Source: Eledone cirrhosa
Taxonomy: Eukaryota
Direction of reading: 5' to 3'
NCBI GenBank assembly: GCA_964016885.1
Contig: OZ024742.1
Span: 354,640,001 to 354,704,000, forward strand
DNA: 64,000 nt
The position numbers were made by a program, and so were the translations under genes. The notes under the pieces were generated by a model that searched no databases, was not told the DNA's origin, and saw nothing but the letters and a program-made list of their open reading frames with translations. How positions within the stretch are numbered: the stretch's first letter is position 1; each line of letters starts with the position of its first letter. This document shows positions 2,089 through 58,190 of the stretch, piece after piece.

Positions 2089-2155
2089 TTGGTGTAATGG
2101 TAGCACAGTGGTTTGGATAACCAAAGATGTGGGTTCGACTCCCATGTACGGCAAC
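2089..2155 (+). mobile_element. tRNA-like Pol III head (SINE remnant or tRNA pseudogene)
   Basis: A box TGGTGTAATGG and B box GGTTCGACTCC (2132-2142) at tRNA spacing; the 5' acceptor strand is missing. Confidence 0.55.
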
Positions 2156-9090: not shown

Positions 9091-9774
9091 AAACTAAAAC
9101 TGAATACTAACCAATACTTATTATTAATATTTACTTATTCCTAATTAAACTATTTTTCACTTGGAACAATTTATCAGCAATTTCTTTTCCTTTTACCAAT
9201 ATATATATATATATATATACATATATATAGATAAATATACACGGGTGTGTATGATTGTGTATAGAAGATTATATTAATAAAAGGAATTCCAACTTTGTCT
9301 GATTTACTTGTTTTATTTACAATCCTTTAAAATGTATAATGGTATTAGAATGAAATTGTATGGTAAAATATTAAATGTTAAGTGTTAATTGAACAAGTAC
9401 TTTGATGCTTTCGCAATCTTCAGGTTCATATTGTGTGGTGACAGTCAAGTTTGCAATGTTCAACTGTAATGAGATGGGTAAATGTTGTGCCTTATATACA
9501 GTGAAAAGTCGCTCCAGAATGCTAAATCTTGCAAACTGTATTTCGACCAATCGGTGTGTAGTTTCACTGGATTACTAAATCTGATTGGTTTAGGCGTCAC
9601 GGTTGGTTGAGCATGTCTAACGACTACTGATTGACCCTATCCAAAGCATCAATTGTTTTGCTATTTTTAGAAATGATGAAAATAACATTTTCATCACCAT
9701 CAACATCTCTTTTATTATTATTATTGTTGCTGTTGTTGTTAGTGCCCGTAGTCATAGTCACACTGCCAAAGCAA

Positions 9775-10304
9775 ACCTACCGATCATTGCTCAAAGTAAT
9801 GCATTAAAAAGCTTAATCACAGATCGATCTTTGACTTCTAGTAAAAGACAGCCGAAAAATTTGAAGCAGTTACTAACAAAAGCAAAGTTTGACCTTAACA
9901 ACAAAGACCAATCATTCACTGTATCTAAATGCAATGATAGTCGATGTGGCACATCTAAATCCATACACGCCGGTCAATATATGAAAATAAAAACTGGAAT
10001 AACATTCCCAAATGCAAATATGAACGGCAAATGCAGAAATCTAATTTACTGCATTAAATGCACGAATTGTGAAGAACTATATGTCGGTCAAACTGGAAAT
10101 GCACTATCGGAACGTGCACGGGTACACCGTCAGCAAATCAGAGACCCGAATATCCGTCAGATTCCCCTAAGTAAGCATCTAGCAACATGTGGTCAGGGAA
10201 TATTTATAATATTCCCATTCTACAAATTGCACAGCCCAAGTGAAATCAAGAGAAAAATCAAAGAAAATAATGTTATTAATAAATTCAAACCCAACCTAAA
10301 TTAA
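9775..10304 (+). pseudogene. PLE linker, Zn-knuckle and GIY-YIG endonuclease
   Basis: KRQPKNLKQLL, CNDSRC, NLIYCIKCTNC..LYVGQT..LSER..HR, E...I...KPNLN. Confidence 0.88.
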
Positions 10305-10657
10305 CAATAATAATGGGGGATTAATCCTACTGTGACTATGACTACGACGACTAAAATCAACAACAACAATAATAATAATAAATGTGATGTTGATGGTGAT
10401 GATTACTAGAAAATGCTATTTTCATCATTTCTAAAATTAGCAAAACAATTGATGCTTTGGATAGGGTCAACCAGTAGTAGTTAGACATGCTCAACCAACC
10501 GTGAAGCCTAAACCAATCAACTTTAGTTATCCATTGAAACTACACACCGATTTGTCGAAATAGAGTTTGCAAGATTTCGCATTCTGGAGCCACTTTTCAC
10601 TGTATTTACCCATCTCATTACAGTTGAAAATTGCAAACTTGACTGTCAGCACACAAT

Positions 10658-10698
10658 ATGTACCTGATGATTGCGAAATCATGAAAGTACTTGTTCAA
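10658..10698 (+). ncRNA. Minimal type I hammerhead in pLTR (mirror copy at ~9390-9430, minus)
   Basis: tg(a/t)ac CTGATGA ttgc-gaaa-(g/t)cat GAAA gtac TT gttca; stem III is the AGTACT palindrome. Confidence 0.65.
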
Positions 10699-10809
10699 TT
10701 AACACTTAACATTTAATATTCTACCATACTATTTCATTCTAATACCATTATACATTTTAAAGGGTTGTAAATAAAACGAGTAAATCAGATAAAGTTTGAA
10801 TTCTTTTTA

Positions 10810-10852
<43 letters not shown>

Positions 10853-10986: not shown

Positions 10987-11880
10987 TCTATATATATAAA
11001 GCTGTGGTTGTCTGTCTGTCTATCGATTTTTGGCACACATCTCCTCTTAGAATCTCTGACGGAATTGCACTGAAATTGCTATACTTGTACATTGAGCCCT
11101 AGCGAAGACATCGGAAAACAAATATTTCAAATTGACCCACCCTATGTGACGAAATCGAATCTAATGTATCGATTTTTGAGCGTAAGTGACGAGTTATTTC
11201 CCTTTGTTCTATATATATAAAGCTGTGGTTGTCTGTCTGTCTATCGATTTTTGGCACACATCTCCTCTTAGAATCTCTGACGGAATTGCACCGAAATTGC
11301 TATACTTGTACATTGAGCCCTAGCGAAGACATCGGAAAAGAAATATTTCAAATTGACCCACCCTATGTGACGAAATCGAATCTAATGTATGGATTTTTGA
11401 GCGTAAGTGACGAGTTATTTCCCTTTGTTCTGTTTACATTGAGCGTCTTACGTTCTGTACGTTCTGTTTACATTTTCTGCGTGCACAAATTAAAAAAATT
11501 ACGCTGGCTTTCTCAGCGTTTAAAATGACATTAACACAATACACGAACAGTTGTCGAGCCAGCAAAATTTTGACCTGCAAAATTCATCAGTTCGAACACT
11601 AAGCTTCCGTTTTGCTTCATTTCCATTTAAAAGCCTTTTAAAACAATATTTTTACTTGAAAACAAGTCTATTTAAAGACTACGTAAAACAAGCAAATATT
11701 TCGTAAAAAAAAGCAAAAATTATATAAGTTTATTTAAAATATATGTATCTGTAAATTTCGTTAGGCGTGCAGACAGACAGACAGTCGTGCAGACAGACTT
11801 TAAGCTAAAAAAGAAAGTTAATATTGTAACTTTAACACAGTTACTGAGCGACCCTGAGCAACGCCGTGCTTTACTGCTAG
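10987..11880 (+). mobile_element. Non-autonomous Helitron-like element with duplicated 5' 221 bp
   Basis: Starts A|TCTATATATATAAA and ends GCAACGCCG...CTAG|T with no TSD. 10987-11207 is repeated at 11208-11428. Confidence 0.7.
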
Positions 11881-26124: not shown

Positions 26125-29100
26125 AGTTAGGGAAGCAGAAAATTGCTTATTGTGATCCAGTTCGTGGTTAAGAAAGCCAGTTTCATGGATGGTTTCAACG
26201 TACAGTTAGGGGTAACTCCAAAAGTTTGTAAAAATTCCGTTCAATCTTGGAGTATAATGAATAAAAGAGAAAACACAGGTAAGTATAAGAGAAGGATTTT
26301 ATCCAGGTATTTACGACCCTTTCATTGGTAAGTGCAACCTTATATTGCTATACTGCAAATAGCAGCCACTCAATTATAATTGTTGTTCACGTCAAAATTT
26401 TCAAAATAGTGAAGAAGTTACTCTGGAAATAGTTGTTAATATATAGAGAAAAACAATTTTTAAATTGTATTTACTCGTATAGAGAGAGGCGAATTAGAAA
26501 GTGAGGGGACACACGGAATAGTATAGAGAGAGAGGAAGGGTGAAAAGTGTTAGGAAGTAGAGTGACAAACTGAGATGGACGGAGGGGTAGAGGTGGAAGG
26601 ATTCCTTCATCAGTTTTTATATGTAGACTTCATGTCGTGGAATGTAGTGAGTTCAAGAGAATTAAATTCATATTAGTGGGAGGAATGGGTAGGGAGAGAG
26701 AAGGGGGGGGGGGGGGTAAAGAGATAAATATACATATAAAAAATAAAGATAAAGATAATAATTACTAAAATAAAAGCAAAGGAGTGCGGATAACGGAGGA
26801 AAGGAAATATAGCCAAAAGGGGAGGGAAGTAAAGAAGAAAGCGAAGAAATAGAAGAGGAATGAAGGAGAAGGGATGGATATAGGTATTGGTTTATGTGGA
26901 TAATTAAAAGGGTTTAGATACAACAAGAGGGTATAAAGGTCTAAGTATAAACAGTTTGTCAGATGGTAGTAAGAGGTTAAGGGTCGATTTGCTCTTAACG
27001 TGTGAAAACTTCTCTTTGAGTATATGGTTACAATAAACTGATCTTTCGATTTTTTGTTGAGTAACTTACTCTTCGATCTCAAAATGTGGAACAGCTCAAG
27101 GTCACATAATCAACAGCTTCTCATACCACTCCGATATGGGGGTGCGTCGATAATTTTTTCCACTTCAGGGTGTATTGATGGTTACTTTCCCTCAGTTGCC
27201 AGGTCTTGTTTGCAAGGGTAGTTACATAGCGATGCTGGGAATGTTTCATTGCGTAACGGTGTGTATACCAACGGGCTTTAAATATATTCCCAGTCGCTCC
27301 GATGTAACACCATTTCTGGTTGTCCGATTCCACTGTGCATTGGAAAACCAGGATAGATTGCATACATTCATTATGTAATGGACAGGTTTCAGGTAGGTGC
27401 CGGTTACAATTATTGTCATGGTCAACTTTGGCATTATTGGTACCCACACATTTAACCTCAATGACCACAAGGTACATTTTGATCATAACCCCACAATTAG
27501 ACTTATATGCGCGTCCAAATCGGACATCGGGAAAATTAGTAAACATATATTAGACATAGTCATAGGACAAATGAAGAATAAACTAGTGATTAAACTATGG
27601 GGTAACGCTTCCGAAACAATTAAGTGGTTTAACAATATAGCTAACAAAAAAGTATATAAATTTATACAATTTGACATTAACGACTATTAGTCCTCTATAT
27701 CCACCAACACCTTGGATAAAGCCTTAGCATTCGCCAAAGCCAATTCTAACCTAACAAACGACGACATAAAAATCATATCAGCTGCTAGGAAAACAATAAT
27801 TAAATTTGAAAACGCCTATTGGAACGTAAGGATAGATTAAATAAAATTGGCATCACGATGGGGGCTAACGACTCGGCTCAAGTCACAGATTTAGTATGTA
27901 TTTACATATCCCATAGTTTACAAAGTGAGTTTAGCGACCGTCACGGTGGAATCTACAGAGACGACGCCCTTATCCTAGTTAAGAACCCTATTAACCAAAG
28001 CATAGAAAGATTCCGTAAGAATTTTAGAAAGATTCTCGGGAACCTAGACCTTATCATAACATATGAGTATAGCACTAAAACAGTTAACTTTCTAGACGCG
28101 ACGCTTAACCTAAATACGGGAGTTATAAGACCTTTTCAAAAGATTAATGAAAACTTAGCATACATCAACTGTAACTCAAACCACCCACTATCCATAATTA
28201 AATCCATTCCGCACAGTATATCCCTTAGACTCTTCCGCCTCTCGTCTAACCGAAAAATCTTCGAGGAACATGCAGAATACTACAATACCGGATTAGACAA
28301 TGCGGGGCACTTAGATAGAGGAGAACGTTTAGATGAAAGCCACCGCAAAGCGCACACGAACACGCATAACACAAACTCTAGAAACACACGCACACACGCA
28401 CTTATTCAAAGAACTACAAAGTATACGGTAAATAGAAATACAACATCGAAATAAAACAAGTCACGCAGTAGAAAATATATTTGGTATAACCCTATATTTA
28501 ACACCTCTATTAGTACTAACTTACCCTCTACCTTCTTTAGAATAAAAAAATAAGCACTTTCCAGATTCACATAGATACACTATAATCCTTAACACTAAAT
28601 CTATTAGACTATCTTACTCCACGGCACCAAATATAGAGGCACACATTAAGATGCTTAACGCTAAACAGATACATAACAACACCAGAACACAAATTTACAA
28701 CAATAACAATACAATCACCCTTAAACACAACATAATATTTAATACACAACCACCCAATAATAGGCAAACAAAACGTAACACATTTGTACAGGCATCGCAG
28801 CCCACCAATAATGCCAAAGTTGCCCATGACAAGAATTGTAACTGCCACCTACCTGAAACATGTCCATTACATAATGAATGTATGCAGTTTAACCTGGTTT
28901 TCCAATGCACAGTGGAATCAGACAACCAGAAATGGCATTACATCGGAGCGACTGGGAATACATTTAAAGCCCGTTGGTATACACACCGTTACGCAATGAA
29001 ACATTCCCAGCATCGTTATGTAACTACCCTTACAAACGAGACCTGGCAACTGAGGGAAAGTAACCATCAACACACCCTGAAGTGGAAAACATTTCGAACG

Positions 29101-29990
29101 CGCCCCCATATCGGAGTGGTATGAGAAGTTGTCGATTATGTGACCATGGTCTGTTACACATATTGAGTTGAAAGAATAAGTTACTCAACAATAAATTCAA
29201 AAGATCAATTTATTGTAACCATAGACTCAAAGAGAAGTGTTCGCACTACAAGTGCAAATCGAACGCTTAACTTCTTACTACCAACTGACAAACTGTATAT
29301 ACTTATACTTTATACCCTCTTGTTGTATCTAAACCCTTTTAATTACCCACAAAAAACAATACATATATCCCTCCCTTCTCTTTCATTCCTCTTCTATTTC
29401 TTTGTTTTCTTCATTCCTTCCCTCCCTTTTGGCTATCTTTTCTTTTCTTCTTTCTCTCCCCTTCTTTGATTTTATTTTTGTCATTATTATCTTTATCTTT
29501 ATTTTTTATATATATATTTATCTCTATATATCTCCCGCTCTCTCTCTCTCTCTATCTCTCCCTCTCTCTCTCTCTCTCTCTATCCATCCTTCCCACTATG
29601 ATCAATTTAATTCTCTTTAACTCAGTACATTCCACGACATGAAGCCTACATATCAAAACTGATCAAGGAATCCTTCCACCTCTACCCCTCCCTCCATCTC
29701 AGTTTGTCACTCTACTTCCTAACTCTTCTCCCCCTTCCTCTCTCTCTATACTATTCCGTTTGTCACCTCACCTTCTAATTCCCCTCTCTCTATACTAGTA
29801 AAAACAATTCCCAAAAAATGTTTTTCTCTATATATTAAGAACTATTTCCAGAGTAACTTACTCACTATTTTGAACATTTTATAATTAAGTGGCTGCTATT
29901 TGCAGTATAGCAATATAAGGTTGCACTTACCAATAAAACGGTCGTTAATACCTGGATAAAATCCTTCTCTTAATGCTTACCTATGTTTTC

Positions 29991-34798: not shown

Positions 34799-34865
34799 TA
34801 TTTTATCTGATGAGGACGTACTGTTGAACTTAACTCAGCACCTCTGAAATATGTATAATAAAATA
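34799..34865 (+). ncRNA. Type I hammerhead at the end of an AT-rich pLTR (33850-34910)
   Basis: tattttat CTGATGA ... GAAA tatgta TA ataaaata; perfect 8-bp stem I. Confidence 0.8.
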
Positions 34866-35231: not shown

Positions 35232-35273
<42 letters not shown>

Positions 35274-36860
35274 TATATTAATGAAAAAGAACAAAGGAAC
35301 TATTATGACATGATAACGAGTTTATTGCAGACAGCCGTTTCGTCCGACCATATGGTTGGACTTTTCAAGGCATAAAACTTGTGATTGTAAGTTCATTATT
35401 TACATCAACGTATCACTTAAGACTAGCAGTGTGAAATTGTGGTATACATCAGCAGCTCCGCTTGTATATGTGGGCCTATATTCTAAGAGGGCTCTTTTAT
35501 ATTAGTTGTCGGAATTGTAAAAGGGATGGGTTATGCGGAGTTAAGATAATTAGAAAATGGCCTAAGAGTAAGGGATTGAAGGTTAAAAATTAGATAATTT
35601 ATAATTTACGCATTAAAAATAAAAGACGTGGGATCTCGTAGAAGCACATTAAAAAATCCCTCAATAAGTGCATAAAGCTTACAAGCCCCAATAACCTTAA
35701 CAAACTAGAAGAGATTAAGAGACTAATGAAATAAAATAAAATAAAAAAATAAAGATATAAAGTTTCCGTAAAAAAATATAAAGTTTCCCAAGAAGTTCCT
35801 TCGAGAGAAAAAAATTTCTTTCGAAAGAAAAAAACTTTCTTCCCCAGAGATCTCGTTAAAAAAATTAAGAAAATTTACGAAGTTTTGATAATCCCTACTA
35901 AGTTGAAAGAAACTAATCAATTAAAGGTTAATTCAAAAAGCCTTCAATAAACCCCTCAGAAAAGGCCCCTTTAATATTTTTAATAGGAACCTCCTCCGAG
36001 AGACCCTTCGAAGAATTAAAATTTTAGAGAGCCTTTAAGGATATATATAAACGAATTGAGGAAAATTATAAATTAAAAGTTAAAAATTACGGTATTTGGG
36101 ATATCCGAGGAATTTTCAAAGGGCTGCTTCAACAGATACAACTTAGGTATACTAGATAAAATAATTTAAGTAATTTAAGTAATTTAATTAGGGAGCAATT
36201 CAAAGAGCTTATCAAGTTGGGCAAGATTAAAGAAAATTATAAGTAAGAAATTACATAAGCAAAAGGACAATAATTATAAAATGTATTTTTAAGAAGGTAT
36301 AAAGTAGCTTCACTAATCTAATAATGTACTATCAAAAAATTATTATAAAATTATTACAAAATTATCATAAAACTATTGATACAGGATTAAAAAATTACTA
36401 TAAAATTATTGATACAGGATTAACAAAGACATAATAATATATTCCTGCCTAATTAACAAAAAATCAATAAACAATTAACAGTCAAGCAAAATTAGCTCAG
36501 GGATATCCCGCTCTCGGATACTTTACACACATACAGCATCACATATGATTAACAAAGACATAATGTTATAATCCTGCGTAATTAACAAACAATTAATTAA
36601 CAATTGATAGTCAAGAAAATGTACTCAGGGATATCCCACGCACGGATACTTTACACACATACAGCAGGATAAACAATACAGGTGACCTTGTGGGCGCGAT
36701 ATCCATTATGCGTATGTAGTCATCTGCATAGCTCCAGGCACATTTGGTCTTGTTTAAAAGTTCAGAGTTCACGAATCAACTGGGATTCACTATCAGCTGC
36801 GTGGACTCTCTGGTAAATGTACCTGTGGATCAAATAGCTATTGGTTGCTGGGTGTGGTCC

Positions 36861-38155
36861 TCAAAGCAATTGTTAAGGGAGTATCTAGTAGGATTAGCGG
36901 ACTATCTAGCAGTGTGACCGCATTTGAAGCGAACGCGGAGTATTACAATAAGGCGCTAGCTGGGTCAGGGCACAAAGATAAACTCCATTATGTAGAGACA
37001 GGCGGCACCACCCCACCACCCCAACCCAGCACTGTAATCACGCATGATATGTCCATGGGAGATAGAGGGAGAGCTAGAAAGACGAATAGGGACAATAGGA
37101 ATTTAGCTAAGAACAACAACACTAGCAATGCAGACACGGATAGGGCCTACGCGCCTGGAAAGCACTACGCCACCCCAAGCAAGTCCAACAGTAAAAACAG
37201 GGGCCTGAGGCCTAGGAGACTCGAGACCAAAACACATACCACTGGAAGCCCAGCAACCACACGTGGTAGAACCCGTAATAATATAGATGAAGGGAGGGTA
37301 AGCAGCATAGGGGATAAGAAACGCAGTGGAAGGAATAGAAGACGTGATAGAACCTTCTTTAACCCGCCCTTCAACTCTAATGTTACTACAGACCTCACCA
37401 AATCTTTTTTCTCTTTAATAGATAGGAACTTCCCCCCAGGTAGAAGGTACGGTAGTGTCATCAATAAGAATACTATCAAACTATCGTACTCAGCAACCCC
37501 TAATCTGGCCTCACACCTAGCTAAGACCAATAAGAGTAAGATTAAAGAGGGACTTAAGGCCATCCGAAATAGTGAACCACGCCAGTACACACGACAACAC
37601 GGGACCAACCCATTGAGTGAATGACCCAGGGGGATAACAGGCAATATAACCGGTCCCACTAGGCAGCCCCGCGGCCGTTTGGAGGGACACGCACCCCTGA
37701 TTGAGGAGCAGGACCCTATTAGAAAGTGTAATTGGAGACGGAAGGGCAAATGCCCACTAGCTGGACACTGCCTTATTAGGAACGTGGTATATGCATGTAA
37801 CGTAACCACAGACACGTATACTAAGACATATGTGGGATCAACCGCTAACCAGTTCAAGACGAGATTCAACGCCCACCAGCATAGCTTCCGATATGAGAAG
37901 CTTAAAAATACCACGTCGTTAGCGGGACACATACATAACTTAAAACAAACAAAAAACCCCTACACACTAAGCTGGAGATGCCTTACTATAGCTCCTCCAA
38001 ATAGCTCGTTGAGCAGGTTTTGTAGCCTGTGCCTAACTGAATCTCATGCCATAGTATTCTCAGGACTCAACTTGCTCAACAAGAGATCATAAATCTTCTC
38101 GTCCTGCCCCCACAATATACTTAGCTCTTTCTTTTTCTTCAGACCAGACACATAG
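36861..38155 (+). pseudogene. Naiad-type thumb, linker, Zn finger and GIY-YIG
   Basis: VSSRISGLSS..YYNKAL..SG; FFNPPF; IKLSYS; CNW..KGKCPLAGHCL; YVGST..FKTRF; CSLCLTE; LNKR. Confidence 0.9.
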
Positions 38156-38347
38156 CCCTGACCCCACCCTATCCTGCACATGGCTGCCCCGCTGGCGAAC
38201 AGGGTGCTCCTTAGTAACCCCGTCCGCATTGATGCCTCGGCTGCCCTATTGCCGATGGGGACTCTGGTGAGGAACAGTCGACCCTGTGTCCCTATTGCCA
38301 ACCTGGGATTGGTGGCAGCATTGTTGTTGGGCACCCTGCGGGCAGAT

Positions 38348-38605
38348 GATGCCTGCGGTGTAGTACATTGTGAGTGCCTGGACCCACGTTGACTAATCTG
38401 GGGAGGTGCCATCGGAGATGTATTTCAACAAATTCGGGAACTTGCCCAAGGAAACAGTAACAGCACACCCAATATGGATGCCTGTGGTGTGGGACATTGT
38501 GAGTGCCTGGACCCACGTTGACTAATCTGGGGAGGTGCCGTCGGAGATATATGTCAACAAATACGGGAACTTGCCCAGGGAAACAGTAACAGAACACCCA
38601 ATATG
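38348..38605. repeat. 129-bp tandem duplication in the PLE 3' UTR
   Basis: Two adjacent similar copies starting gatgcctg at 38348 and 38477. Confidence 0.85.
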
Positions 38606-40925
38606 GCGGCCGCTCCCTGCCTATAACCAATCAAACCCCCTCCTCCCCTAATAAACCCCCGCCCAAATATATGCCCCTCCCCATTCTCCCCCACTCACTT
38701 CTTTTGAGTTAGTTCTCCTTTATTATTAGTGGTTCTTTTTGAGTTAGTTCTTTATTAAAAGTGATATTTTGTATATTACCACGGTTGACTTAATGGGCAT
38801 GGAGAATTGACTCCCTTGATGTCTGACCACTCGATAAGTTAGGGGTTGTGCCCCTTGCGCAGGGGTGTGTCTAGCTGGTCTACCTGCTCTCTGCTACGAC
38901 CCGAGACTGGACACGGTCGTAGCCACAGGCCAGCGCGTGCGCGATAGCATGGGATATAATTTGTTTGCTAGTCACCCCGTGTAATATGATACCCCAAGAT
39001 TCCATGCATGAGATTCACCGAAGCATGCGCAGTCTTAACCGGGAGATGAGAAACGAATTTGAAAATAACACAAGAGAGACCCTTTGGATAGCGTAGACGC
39101 CGGACCATGCCCGCAAATATATACAGACCTGTCTTGAATATGCATGGCTAGCGCAATATGGATAACGCGACCAAAATCTAAGCTTGAACCGACCCCTACA
39201 ACAGACAAATAGAGGACAGCCCTTCGCATTTGACCAGTCGCGTGTGTGCTTGGAGTTCGTAGTATACCACCCCAGTCAAATCCACACTGGTTTTTTTACC
39301 AATATAGCATGTAAACCAATACATCCTATGCAGCGAGACCTTGGATTAAGAACCGGCAGCGTGCAATCCCCGAAACTAAAAGATCGAACGGACCACACCC
39401 AGCAACCAATAGCTATTTGATCCACAGGTACATTTCCCAGAGAGTCCACGCAGCTGATAGTGAATCCCAGTTGATTCGTGAACTCTGAACTTTTAAACAA
39501 GACCGAATGTGCCTGGAGCTATGCAGATGACTACATACGCATAATGGATATCGCGCCCACAAGGTCACCTGTATTGTTTATCCTGCTGTATGTGTGTAAA
39601 GTATCCGTGCGTGGGATATCCCTGAGTACATTTTCTTGACTATCAATTGTTAATTGATTGTTTGTTAATTACGCAGGAGTATACCATTATGTCTTTGTTA
39701 GTCATATGTGATGCTGTATGGGTGTAAAGTATCCCTGAGCGGGATATCCCTGAGCTAATTTTGCTTGACTGTTAATTGTTTATTGATTTTTTTGTTAATT
39801 AGGCAGGAATATATTATTATGTCTTTGTTAATCCTGTATCAATAATTTTATAGTAATTTTTTAATCCTGTATCAATAGTTTTATGATAATTTTGTAATAA
39901 TTTTATAATAATTTTATAATAATTTTGTGATAATTTTATAATAATTTTTTGATAGTACATAATTAGATTAGTGAAGCTACCTTATACCTTCTTAAAAATA
40001 CATTTTATAATTATTTTCTTTTAAAAATACATTTTATAATTATTGCCCTTTTGCTTATGTAATTTCTTACTTATAATTTTCTTTAATCTTGCCCAACTTG
40101 ATAAGATCATGAATTGCTCCCTAATTAAATTACTTAAATTACTTATTTTATCTATTATACCTAAGTTGTATCTGTTGAAGCAGCCCTTTGAAAATTCCTC
40201 GGATATCCCAAATACCGTAATTTTTAACTTTTAATTTATAATTTTCCTCAATTCGTTTATATATATCCTTAAAGGCTCTCTAAAATGTTAATTCTTCGAA
40301 GGGTCTCTCGGAGGAGGTTCCTATTACAAATATTAAAAGGACCTTTTCTGAGGGGTGTATTGAATGATTTTTGAATTAACCTTTAATTGATTAGTTTGTT
40401 TCAACTTAGTAGGGATTATCAAAACTTCGTAAATTTTCTGAAATTTTTTAACGAGATCTCTGGGGAAGAAGGTCTTTTTCTTTCGAAAGAAATGTTTTCC
40501 TCTCGAAGGAACTTGTTGGGAAACTTCATATTTTTTTACGGAAACTTTATATCTTGATTTTTTTATTTTATTTTATGTTATTAGTCTCTTAATCTCTTCT
40601 AGTTTGTTAAGTTTATTGGGGCTTGTAAGATTTATGCACTTATTGGGGGATTTTTTAAGGTGCTTCTACGAGATCCCAAGTCTTTTACTTTTAATGCCTA
40701 AATTATAAATTATCTAATTTTTAACCTTCAATCCCTGACTCTTAGACCATTTTCTAACTCCCCATAACCCATCCCTTTTACAATTCCGACAACTAATATA
40801 AAACAGCCCCCTTAGAATATAGACCCCAAATATACAAGCGGAGCTGCTGATGTATACCACAATTTCAAACTGCAAGTCTTAAGTGATACGTTGATGTAAA
40901 TAATGAACTTACAATCACATGTTAT

Positions 40926-40974
40926 TTGCCTTGAAAAGTCCAACCATATGGTCGGACGAAACGGCTGTCGGCAA
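40926..40974 (+). ncRNA. Type I hammerhead with U3-A8 core (mirror copy 35325-35373, minus)
   Basis: ttgcc TTGAAAA gtcc-aacc-atat-ggtc-ggac GAAA cggctg TC ggcaa. Confidence 0.8.
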
Positions 40975-41533
40975 TAAACTTATTATAATGTCATAATAGT
41001 TCCTTTGTTCTTTTTCATTAATATTTCTGCTCTGCTTATACGCATAGAGCTTAACTAGCTACCGTCGCATATTTGGTAGGTCCGACGTGATCATCGCGAT
41101 TCACATACGACCTACCATACATCTTGCTTATATATATATATATATATATAATCTGTCCTAAAGAGTTTGTCTCCTGATGTGTTCGAAGCTCGAGATTTTA
41201 TCCATAATAGGATATATCAAAATGCGGACGAGACCCGGGGTTAGCGACATAATCCTGGTATGTGTATAAGCATTTCTTGTAACTTTAATGTTATACTTAA
41301 TAGTGTATGGTTGACCATGTATTTAATCGATTTCCACGTGCTGTTGAAATGTTGGGGAACATTCCATGGCGGTTGGCCGCGAAGAGATTGCTGTCGTTTA
41401 TTTATTTTCTATTTCTTCATAGGTGCCTTTTAATCTTATAGCCTGGTCTAATTTATTTTTTGTGTGGTTAATTATGCTAATTGGGAGAGAAAATGGTGTA
41501 TATATATTATCATATGATTCTATGGTCATACTT

Positions 41534-43571: not shown

Positions 43572-43636
43572 TATTTTATCTGATGAAAGCGTACCATAAT
43601 TTGTCTTGGTTGCCCTTGAAATATGTTTAATAAAAT
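43572..43636 (+). ncRNA. Type I hammerhead, 5' pLTR
   Basis: tattttat CTGATGA ... GAAA tatgtt TA ataaaat. Confidence 0.75.
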
Positions 43637-47335: not shown

Positions 47336-47400
47336 TATTTTATCTGAAGAAAGCGTACCATAATGTGCCTTGGGTGTCCTTGAAATATATATAATAAATT
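47336..47400 (+). ncRNA. Type I hammerhead, 3' pLTR
   Basis: tattttat CTGAAGA ... GAAA tatata TA ataaa. Confidence 0.75.
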
Positions 47401-47907: not shown

Positions 47908-52503
<4,596 letters not shown>

Positions 52504-55099: not shown

Positions 55100-55365
55100 A
55101 TAGCCGGTCAATACACTCTTGCATCTATCGACCGAAGCAAAAGCCTGAGCAATGGTTGACCAGCAGTCACCCATGCATGCCAGTTTCCCCTCTCGAAGCC
55201 ATTGGCCGATATATCTTCGCACTAGTGACGTCGCAACTCATTTCTAAAGCTGTGTAAACAGGAACAATGTGAAATAAAGTGTCTTGCTCAAGAACGCAAT
55301 ACAAAGTCTGGTCCGAGAGTCAAGTTCACAACCTCACGAATGTAAGCCCGACACACTAACCACAA
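55100..55365 (-). mobile_element. tRNA-derived SINE with V-domain-like motif
   Basis: Minus strand gtggttagtgtgtcgggc...ttcttgagcaagacacttt. Confidence 0.6.
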
Positions 55366-55396
55366 CATATTTCACTCAATATATATATATATCCAC

Positions 55397-56152
55397 TCAC
55401 ACTATGCTAAACCCATGATCTCCAAATACCTGATACTCAAAAACTCAGCAATGTCCAGTAGTGCTAAGTTTAATATTCTGATGCAGTTCTCTGGCTACAA
55501 CCAAAGAGACCGAATCAGAGTATACGAAGGAGCCACGGAGAAGTATAAGACCCTCATAGAACTAGACATGAAAGGAATTTGCCCATTATACAGGAGCAAA
55601 TCATGGAATAGCTTAGACAGGACTAGACATAAGATAGGGAAAGCCACCCCATGGTACGACAAACAGAGATACCAGAGTGTCATGTTGGTGGACGCTACCC
55701 CTGGAGGGAAATTAGCTAACCAGTGTAGAAAGGCCCGGAGAAAGATCCACTTAAAGATTAAGGTGGTAGAAAAGCCAGGAACCACCATAAAATCCCTGAT
55801 CAGCTAAATCTACCCTTTTAAGAAAACCCACTGTACTAATAGGAAATGTATTATATCTAAAGTAAACCCCCGGATAAACTGTAAAACTAGAAACGTAGTC
55901 TATAGCATAAGATGTACAGAGGGTACTTGCAGAAACATGACAACAGCATACACAGGCGAGACAGCTCGTAGCATAGGTGGAAGGATAGACCAACAATGGG
56001 GGGAACAAAAAGGACGAAAACAAAGTTCAGTACTATACGAACATGCCAGATAATAACACGAAGGTAACATAGACAACATAGACATTAGAATAATATCTAA
56101 ACATAGAAATGACCCAGCAGATAGGCAAATCAGAGAGGCCAGCGAAATAGAA
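55397..56152 (+). pseudogene. Third PLE lineage: thumb, linker and GIY-YIG fragment, cut off by the adjacent palindrome
   Basis: YAKPM..SA; SGY; LYRSKSW; TPGG.L; IKVVEKPG; C....C; VVYSIRC..C..YTGETARS; RQIREA. Confidence 0.8.
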
Positions 56153-56154
56153 CT

Positions 56155-56995
56155 GTATACATACATACATATATGTAGACAGACGTACTGTAGTATGTAT
56201 ATATATACATACATTCACACATATATATATTTATGTGCGTATGGGTTTACCGAACATTTATTATAATCTTCGGTTTGTTTGTAAATAAACATCCCGAATT
56301 ACGCCGTACAGTGTTCGGCAACCATCGTTACCCCTTTCGTTCAACACTGACAGAGGAACGATGAACTAGTTTCAAGCTTATTAGCTATCGTCAGCACCGT
56401 ATACCTTCCTGTCAGATGATTGAACGTTTGAAAGTATATACTTTCCCTATGTATATTAACGGCTGAGCGGACTAATTTGCATATCGAGAGAGTTAGTCGG
56501 GCGGGCGTACCGAAAACAATAAGTGGAAAATAATGAAATGAAATTTCATTTCATTCTTTTCCACTTATTCTTTTCGGTACGCCCGGCCGACTAATTCACT
56601 CCATATGCAAATTACGCTGCTCAGCCGTTAATATACATAAGGAAAGTATATACTTTCAAATGTTCAATCATCTGACAGGAAGGTATACGACGCTGACGAT
56701 AGCTAATAATCTTGAAACTAGTTCATCGTTCCTTTGTCAGTGTTGAACAAAAGGGCAACGATGGCTGCCGAACAACGTACGGGGTAATTCGGGCTGTTTA
56801 TTTACAAACAAACCGAACATTATAATAGATGTTCGGTAAACCCATACGTACATAAATATATATATGTGTGAATGTATGTATATATATACATACTAATGTG
56901 CATCTGTATACATATATGTATGTACGTATACATACATATATTTAAGTAACGGCCGTACTAAGAATGAGAAATGAAATTTCATTTCATTCTTTTTC
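56155..56995. mobile_element. Inverted dimer of a ~433-nt non-coding HHR unit (retrozyme-like)
   Basis: Axis at 56543/56544. HHRs at 56358-56400 (minus) and 56687-56729 (plus): acggtg CTGACGA t-agct-aata-agct-t GAAA ctag TT catcgt. Confidence 0.8.
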
Positions 56996-57306
56996 ATATA
57001 TATATATATATATAAAAACAAATAACGAAACGAAATTAAATATCGTTTCGTTTGTAACTCACTTTTGTATGACTGACGCTTAAACAATTAAGTTAAAAAT
57101 GTACATCCACATATGTATACTGAAATACTAGTAGGCATATGAATACACACACGTGTACATATGTAGATGTACCGAGTTTTTCACTGGTCACTTTACTGTG
57201 AGTGTCCAGCTATACTGTATTTAAACACACAGACAAACCGGTTTCTAGAGTCATACTGGTTTTTGAGGAAACACCTTTCCTCTATTCTTCAGAAAGCCAG
57301 ACAAGG

Positions 57307-57351
57307 AATATTGGACTAGTTTCGATGTTGTTACATCTCATCAGCAATATT
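57307..57351 (-). ncRNA. Canonical minimal type I hammerhead
   Basis: aatattg CTGATGA gatg-taacaa-catc GAAA ctag TC caatatt; GUC triplet. Confidence 0.92.
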
Positions 57352-57772
57352 TACCTATCTTCCGGCCTTTCTAGAGAATCGTAAAAGCACATATCGTAAT
57401 ATGCTTTTTCTATGAAAATTAGTAGTGGGCAGACTAATTTGCATAGAGCGTGAGTACGTACCGGTTCAACGGAGACGATAAAAACAAATAACGAAACGAA
57501 ATTAAATTTTGTTTCGTTTGTAACTCACTTTTGTATGACTGACGCTTAAACAATTAAGTTAAAAATGTACATCCACATATGTATACTGAAATACTAGTAG
57601 GCATATGAATACACACACGTGTACATATGTAGATGTACCGAGTTTTTCACTGGTCACTTTACTGTGAGTGTCCAGCTATTCTGTATGTAAACACACAGAC
57701 AAACCGGTTTTTAGAGTCATACTGATTTTTGAGGAAACACCTTTCCTCTATTCTCCAGAAAGCCAGACACGG

Positions 57773-57817
57773 AATATTGGAGTAGTTTCGATGTTGTTAC
57801 ATCTCATCAGCAATATT
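57773..57817 (-). ncRNA. Second hammerhead of the dimer (stem III mutated, CUC triplet)
   Basis: Identical to the first except ctag>ctac. Confidence 0.8.
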
Positions 57818-57965
57818 TACCTATCTTCCGGCCTTTCTAGAGAATCGTAAAAGCACATATCGTTATATGCTTTTTCTATGAAAATTAGTAGTGGGCAGAC
57901 TAATTTGCATAGAGCGTGAGTACGTAGCGGTTCAACGGAGACGATATATATATATATTTATATAT

Positions 57966-58190
57966 ATAAAAATAACAGATTAAAGTTTAAGCAAAAATCG
58001 GTGCTTTCACCCTTAACGGGATATTCTGTTTCCGAAGATCACGTTAAGTGTGAAAGCAGCGATTCTTTGCTTAAACTTCAATCTGTTATTTTATTAAATA
58101 TTTGCCCTACGGTTATATATATTTGATGTATATTTATTATTATCGAGCCCTCTTTGGATTTTAGTCTTCAATTTTATTATTATTACTATA
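57966..58190. repeat. Small dispersed family with fold-back (relatives at 18190-18295 and 42858-43010)
   Basis: Shared gatcccgttaagggtgaaagcagcgattctttgcttaaac; inverted arms at 57966-58095. Confidence 0.6.

What the first reader, a model, noticed from the sequence alone, without database searches (positions are those of the whole stretch)
57012..57945. 466-nt hammerhead tandem dimer: candidate circular-RNA retrozyme
Seen: two head-to-tail non-coding units, each with a minimal type I HHR, inserted in (TA)n. The first HHR is textbook (7-bp stem I, ACUAGU palindromic stem III, GUC). Known: minimal HHRs with palindromic stem III cleave as dimers, and animal non-LTR retrozymes are tandem HHR repeats processed to monomers and circles. 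Inference: a minus-strand transcript would release a 466-nt monomer that neighbouring PLE enzymes could mobilise.
Basis: partly seen in the sequence, partly recalled or inferred. Interest (0 to 1): 0.85.

Follow-up and report, generated by a model that had tools for sequence, protein, structure and literature searches.

The report
Decaying copy of Penelope-mobilised hammerhead retrozyme
This is a two-unit, partly mutated copy of a non-coding repeat present at thousands of (TA)n sites in this genome; each unit carries a predicted self-cutting RNA motif, and the shape of the copies suggests they were likely pasted in by a Penelope-type jumping-gene enzyme, at least sometimes by copying round an RNA ring.

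Summary
Observation confirmed: two 466-bp units (97.6% identical) in (TA)n, each with a minus-strand type I hammerhead. The second has GUC>CUC, which breaks the palindrome needed for dimer cleavage, so this copy is probably a poor monomer source. It belongs to a protein-free family (at least 2,364 insertions, arrays of up to 31 units): a non-LTR retrozyme, a known kind. No sampled copy joined an RT gene. Copies carry the Penelope-like (PLE) signature: head-to-head arms starting at two fixed sites about 70 nt apart (60 of 64 two-armed insertions), as in coding PLEs here. Arms run through the cleavage site, so the template was a circle or an uncut multimer. One insertion repeats the same 11 A>G changes in three successive units; the 37-nt part searched occurs nowhere else. 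That fits rolling-circle copying of one edited RNA, but a family-wide A>G bias was not significant without it, and a few arrays favour multimer templates. The neighbouring PLE is broken and no partner was identified. Cleavage, expression and circles are untested. This scan reached the same reading earlier on other DNA (e1-8803518, e1-8668073, e1-8672458).

The parts
57012..57477 (-). Retrozyme unit 1 (466 bp); its left end is the family's fixed start site A joined to (TA)n
57478..57943 (-). Retrozyme unit 2 (466 bp), followed by ATA (microhomology to unit start and to the TA tract); no inverted second arm
57307..57351 (-). Intact type I hammerhead, palindromic ACUAGU, GUC; predicted cut after 57314
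57773..57817 (-). Second hammerhead with G>C at 57782 (ACUACU, CUC); dimer helix III predicted weakened
57012..57089 (-). About 70-nt 'tail' between start site A (unit position 1) and start site B (unit 69-80), containing a hairpin at unit 13-41; nearly invariant between subfamilies
57438..57445 (-). Octamer-type motif (unit 427-434), identical in the sister family B; role untested, lost in one mobile sub-lineage
56997..57011 (.). (TA)n target, left flank
57944..57965 (.). Imperfect (TA)n target, right flank
56154..56932 (.). Separate head-to-head insertion of sister family B (colinear with the unit, own HHR-like motif in each arm); not part of this insertion
55346..56158 (+). Broken PLE 3' fragment (frame interrupted by stops, GIY-YIG-like motif by eye; no Pfam hit for the two pieces scanned); bystander

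Best explanation
This is a decaying two-unit insertion of a protein-free, hammerhead-bearing tandem repeat family (a non-LTR retrozyme) that is likely mobilised in trans by a Penelope-like reverse transcriptase/GIY-YIG endonuclease, likely often from a circular monomer. Inferred cycle: tandem copies are transcribed on the minus strand; adjacent hammerheads pair through ACUAGU and cut; the structured 466-nt monomer is ligated by a host ligase (by analogy with PMC7229834). The PLE enzyme nicks both strands of a (TA)n tract and starts cDNA internally at two fixed sites about 70 nt apart, then runs through hammerhead sites for a variable number of turns; the two cDNAs join head to head. Uncut multimers probably also serve as templates. 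Shown here: anatomy, copy number, fixed ends, read-through of the cut site, repeated template-level variants. Not shown: transcription, cleavage, circles, identity of the enzyme. This copy lacks the second arm and its upstream hammerhead is mutated, so it is probably a dead end.
For: Copy counts, exact patterns, controls 0: 4,194 HHR cores, 2,364 TA-joined site-A ends, 6,360 unit-to-unit junctions. Of 94 site-A-anchored insertions, 64 are complete two-armed (60 of them end at unit 69-80), 8 have a site-B remnant, 17 are one-armed and 5 were cut by the fetch. Coding PLEs here show the same two arms, TA target and a 40-60-nt one-sided tail (L186, L199, window 9270-10817; 3 of 4 examined, L196 gave no alignment). 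This matches the tail and two-site internal priming in PMC8557442 and PMC11167929. Arms pass the cut site: arm A over 310 nt in 71 of 91, arm B over 240 nt in 50 of 64, no pile-up at the cut (3 of 91, 2 of 66). 28 of 87 multi-unit loci have variants shared by all units, often in both arms; the window's two units share one at unit 123. L083: 11 RNA-sense A>G changes in unit 336-455 repeated in three successive units. Its edited 37-mer has only 2 genomic hits, both in L083; the unedited form has 13 hits at 12 other loci. Single-unit changes are strand-biased, RNA-sense G>A 105 vs C>U 51 (p 6e-5; new loci alone 31 vs 13, p 0.015), as RT error or cDNA deamination would give. The circular monomer folds at -143 kcal/mol, z -8.6 against 60 shuffles. 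Stem II has a compensatory pair swap in 2 of 6 subfamilies, and family B keeps stems I and II with different sequence. An intact RT+GIY-YIG frame exists elsewhere (L181, 938 aa).
Against: No partner PLE found by sequence among 82 PLE 3' ends and 20 long-frame loci. The family-wide A>G excess is not significant without L083: 12 A>G vs 8 U>C (p 0.37), 13 vs 5 by a second alignment (p 0.06), and 2 vs 2 in 39 new insertions. A variant that looked private in my sample (L062) is a sub-lineage of 70 matches at 7 loci, mostly long arrays, so array-wide variants can simply be inherited. In L004, L081, L120 and L127 the outermost units of both arms share changes that inner units lack, which fits a heterogeneous multimer template or gene conversion, not a monomer circle. 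Long arrays show higher-order duplication patterns. In PMC11167929 the uncut RNA was the main substrate. In bioRxiv 10.64898/2026.07.22.740005 eight of nine tested dimers did not cleave. 13 predicted pairs are broken in some subfamily.
Confidence: 0.7

Rival explanations
1. Non-autonomous PLE derivative copied only from uncut linear multimer transcripts; the hammerhead is a retained pseudo-LTR feature and circles play no part in mobilisation.
For: Uncleaved RNA is the dominant PLE substrate in vitro (PMC11167929). Outermost units of both arms share private changes in 4 loci. The L062 lineage has mostly long arrays. No RNA evidence was available.
Against: L083 needs identical 11-site A>G patterns in at least two passes of one insertion. 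Homogeneous long arrays in both arms are hard to regenerate from linear donors. Array length does not differ between GUC and GUU lineages (33 vs 53 insertions, p 0.29).
Confidence: 0.22
2. Truncated pseudo-LTRs of an autonomous PLE, with tandem units built afterwards by unequal crossing-over (satellite-like).
For: Higher-order repeat patterns in long arrays (L035, L091, L122). The PLE-type ends are equally those of truncated autonomous copies. The preprint proposes local amplification.
Against: None of 80 end-anchored and 20 HHR-anchored loci continue into a PLE frame. The same 466|1 junction occurs 6,360 times at dispersed sites and is colinear in family B. Both arms begin at fixed sites and cross the junction.
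Confidence: 0.06
3. Assembly artefact or chance hammerhead-like sequence.
For: None beyond the repeat-rich context.
Against: The units differ at 11 sites. The 466-to-1 joint is present in contigs of all 4 public runs laid. Stems covary.
Confidence: 0.02

Closest known systems
Metazoan non-LTR retrozymes (coral, mussel, axolotl; PMC7229834; abstract, Results parts 1-2 of 3 and Discussion read)
   Same: Protein-free tandem units, one type I HHR each, GC below 50%, weak palindromic helix III like axolotl HHR_Amex1, strongly self-paired monomer, thousands of copies, co-occurrence with PLEs.
   Different: Unit is 466 bp, above the 150-450 bp given there. Insertion ends are resolvable here and show PLE-type two-site starts, tail and inverted arms, which the parts read do not describe. 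Expression and circles are not shown here.
Vertebrate non-LTR retrozymes as PLE derivatives (bioRxiv 10.64898/2026.07.22.740005; parts 1-3 of 5 read, supplements not seen)
   Same: Dimers and multimers with type I HHR; proposed mobilisation by PLE machinery.
   Different: Their evidence is co-occurrence and pLTR homology. Here no parent pLTR was found, and the evidence is insertion anatomy and template-level variants.
EN+ Penelope-like elements, including Poseidon_Ac (PMC11167929, parts 1-2 of 4 read; PMC8557442, passages read)
   Same: Partial tandems, inverted 5'-truncated arm, one-sided tail from two internal RT starts downstream of the HHR, AT-rich or (TA)n target, both strands extended.
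   Different: No ORF. Tail about 70 nt instead of 30-40. Whole units repeat. Canonical rather than minimal HHR.
Non-autonomous Chlamys elements such as MRC1 (PMC8557442, passage read)
   Same: Non-autonomous PLE with multicopy head-to-tail insertions.
   Different: Algal and a different PLE clade; an HHR/circle cycle is not described in the passage read.

Membership tests
Metazoan non-LTR retrozyme | [quoted passage not shown] | tested here: met
   149 of 156 matched HHRs keep ACUAGU (that pattern misses one stem II subfamily). In this copy the second HHR is mutated.
Metazoan non-LTR retrozyme | No protein coding and no attached RT gene | tested here: met
   Six-frame translation; 80 + 20 loci without a continuing PLE frame
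Metazoan non-LTR retrozyme | Low GC, highly self-paired monomer | tested here: met
   168 of 466 G+C; circular MFE z -8.6, 65% paired
Metazoan non-LTR retrozyme | Dispersed multicopy mobile family | tested here: met
Metazoan non-LTR retrozyme | Self-cleavage as monomer or dimer | not testable with these tools
   Only a predicted dimer helix
Metazoan non-LTR retrozyme | Expressed as linear and circular monomer RNA | not testable with these tools
   No run on record as RNA was listed; indirect genomic signs only (L083)
Metazoan non-LTR retrozyme | Target-site duplication, when present | tested here: inconclusive
   Insertions lie in (TA)n, so a duplication cannot be read
Autonomous EN+ PLE | Single ORF with RT and GIY-YIG | tested here: not met
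Autonomous EN+ PLE | Tandem/inverted insertion with one-sided tail and AT-rich target | tested here: met
   60 of 64 two-armed insertions end at site B. The window copy itself has only arm A.
Autonomous EN+ PLE | Unit homologous to the pLTR of a coding element | tested here: inconclusive
   None found in 82 PLE ends and 20 long-frame loci out of over 10,000 GIY-YIG candidates
PLE minimal HHR (PMC4209133, part 1 of 4 read) | Helix II 7-8 bp, helix I 4-5 bp, no helix III | tested here: not met
   Helix I 7 bp, helix II 5 bp, ACUAGU present

The most novel reading that the evidence does not exclude
The family is a genomic fossil record of the unproven step in the retrozyme cycle: a PLE enzyme primes both nicked strands of (TA)n at two fixed internal sites on a hammerhead-made RNA ring and rolls round it, occasionally writing ADAR-type A-to-I edits of a single RNA molecule permanently into the germline genome, repeated unit after unit.
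Probability: 0.55. Interest if true: 0.72.

Novelty: new member of a known kind. Interest (0 to 1): 0.48.

Why it matters
Papers on animal retrozymes propose that PLE enzymes reverse-transcribe the circles but, in the parts I read, show no insertion-level evidence. This young, abundant family has readable ends that match PLE biochemistry and gives exact predicted priming sites, so the proposal becomes directly testable in vitro. One array appears to preserve RNA editing in DNA. The locus itself is an ordinary, decaying member, and the scan has already reported this reading from other loci, so it adds a replicate with some tempering results.

Tried and rejected
Rfam at gathering thresholds: no hammerhead hit. 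RNA evidence: no RNA holder listed. Contigs of 4 runs of unrecorded kind hold the unit and the 466-to-1 joint; one is a single 495-nt contig with a 30-nt end overlap, but tandem DNA gives the same, so it is not counted as evidence of circles. Whether any of those runs is RNA stays open. Partner search by octamer pattern found family B arrays, not coding elements (17 of 20 loci); PLE-end and long-frame comparisons were negative; L020 and L075 flanks led nowhere. Family-wide ADAR bias looked strong at first (21 of 45 vs 35 of 331) but rests largely on L083 and did not replicate. L062 as a second private edited array: rejected. Octamer as an essential promoter: weakened by the same lineage, which lacks it; the likeness to the newt satellite 2 promoter is recalled and my search did not find the paper. 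Run-off at the cleavage site: no pile-up at 296-308; a post hoc cluster at 283-305 in arm B (9 of 66, p 0.005) is unexplained, and some inner ends are misparsed at 41/466 because of the hairpin. The 278 C>T recurrence in the first 30 loci was treated as selection by the query, so L001-L030 were left out of the spectra. Duplicate loci were dropped before counts. The sigma-70 scan is irrelevant to a eukaryote.

Full report
Observation. The repeat is as described: 57012-57943 holds two 466-bp units, 97.6% identical, between (TA)n tracts. Each has a minus-strand type I hammerhead with a 7-bp stem I, CUGAUGA, a 5-bp stem II and GAAA. The left one has ACUAGU and GUC; the right one has ACUACU and CUC. 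By the definitions in PMC4209133 (part 1 of 4 read) this is the canonical metazoan form that needs a dimer, not the PLE minimal form. The mutation lowers the predicted dimer helix from -6.2 to -1.9 kcal/mol. In a minus-strand transcript the mutated HHR makes the upstream cut, so monomer release from this locus is doubtful. The monomer between cuts folds as a circle at -143 kcal/mol, z -8.6 against 60 shuffles.

Family. The genome is 3.0 Gb. A DNA search scored 40 of 267 candidates and returned 43 near-full units at 96-100%. Exact patterns give 4,194 HHR cores, 2,364 ends joined to (TA)n and 6,360 internal junctions, all lower bounds with reversed controls at 0. Arrays reach 31 units. Subfamilies of 463-470 nt differ by about 5%. 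None of 80 end-anchored loci (tblastn) or 20 HHR-anchored loci (ORF scan) continues into a PLE frame. The palindrome at 56154-56932 is a colinear sister family (score 277 against a shuffled maximum of 169) that also forms protein-free 430-443-bp arrays with re-paired HHR stems. I did not test the organism; 'cephalopod' appears only in earlier scan notes.

Insertion anatomy. Of 94 insertions anchored at unit position 1, 64 have a complete inverted second arm, and 60 of those end at unit 69-80 against (TA)n. Eight more have a remnant of that end, 17 have one arm (like the window copy) and 5 were cut by the fetch. In RNA terms both arms point outward from a head-to-head joint, and one carries about 70 extra bases. 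Coding PLEs in this genome look the same, with 40-60-nt tails (3 of 4 examined). PMC8557442 (passages) describes inverted arms, tails and (TA)n bias for PLEs. PMC11167929 (parts 1-2 of 4) shows that the tail comes from two internal RT starts and that both target strands are extended. I infer PLE mobilisation in trans. The adjacent PLE is broken. An intact 938-aa RT+GIY-YIG frame exists elsewhere, but no partner was matched by sequence.

Template. The starts lie 225-300 nt downstream of the cut. Most arms cross the cut (71 of 91 and 50 of 64) with no pile-up there, so a cut linear monomer is not the usual template; it is a circle or an uncut multimer. For circles: 28 of 87 multi-unit loci have changes shared by all units, including one in the window dimer that is absent from run X1's contigs. 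L083 has 11 RNA-sense A>G changes within unit 336-455 in three successive units and is otherwise almost identical to its nearest relative. The edited 37-mer, which covers five of the changes, occurs only there, the unedited form occurs at 12 other loci, and 11 sibling loci carry A at these sites apart from one unit at one site. Even if the middle unit is a later duplicate, the first and last passes share the pattern. Array-wide A>G sites have a 5' G less often than single-unit ones (2 of 23 vs 14 of 41, p 0.03), in line with ADAR preference as I recall it.

Against over-reading. Without L083 the A>G versus U>C bias is not significant (12 vs 8; 13 vs 5, p 0.06) and 39 new insertions gave 2 vs 2. 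The L062 variant is an inherited lineage at 7 loci. Four loci share changes only between the outermost units of the two arms, which suggests multimer templates or conversion, and long arrays show later local duplication. PMC11167929 found uncut RNA to be the main substrate, and the 2026 preprint (parts 1-3 of 5) saw cleavage in one of nine dimers. A separate, replicated signal is the excess of RNA-sense G>A over C>U among single-unit changes (105 vs 51; 31 vs 13 in new loci), which fits RT error or deamination of first-strand cDNA and supports the minus strand as template. No RNA data were available.

Comparison and verdict. It meets the sequence-level criteria of non-LTR retrozymes in PMC7229834; cleavage and circle expression could not be tested. 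It works like a non-autonomous PLE but is not an autonomous one. Search listings (titles and abstract starts only, open-licence library, preprint supplements not seen) showed no paper on this family or on edited arrays as evidence for rolling-circle insertion. I reached this reading before (notes), which then showed three earlier scan reports with the same reading on other loci; they are not independent support. Verdict: new member of a known kind, with useful but partly single-case mechanistic evidence; interest 0.48.

Noticed in passing
window 56154-56932: Head-to-head insertion of sister retrozyme family B (HHR-like with CUGACGA, GUA or GUU triplet); long tandem arrays elsewhere (L131, L132).
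   Followed up: partly
window 34799-34865 (+), 43573-43636 (+), 47339-47398 (+), 58526-58449 (-): A further group of hammerhead-like motifs with AT-rich palindromic stem III, probably PLE pseudo-LTRs.
   Followed up: no
window 9270-10817, 26439-29833, 35271-41028, 47955-52244: Large inverted-arm elements; GIY-YIG Pfam hits at 9621-10301 and (weak) 37625-38089; the first has TA flanks and a ~40-nt tail.
   Followed up: partly
window 57961-58100: Short palindromic insertion next to the dimer, with relatives in many fetched loci; likely another TA-targeting mini element.
   Followed up: partly
L062 759-780 and six other loci: A 468-nt sub-lineage in which three RNA-sense A>G changes destroy the octamer motif, yet it spread and has mostly long arrays; possibly an edited founder.
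   Followed up: partly
L020 1160-1300: One arm starts with about 120 nt of foreign sequence before joining the unit at position 396; possible template switch.
   Followed up: partly
window 2090-2145: tRNA-like Rfam match (36.8 bits) beside (TA)n; possibly a SINE head.
   Followed up: no
window 10987-11431, 36418-36666, 38348-38606: Other two-copy tandem repeats (221 and 129 bp periods).
   Followed up: no
L147 1896-3572: Intact 559-aa host ORF that looks like a NOVA-type KH-domain protein (label by eye, no scan).
   Followed up: no
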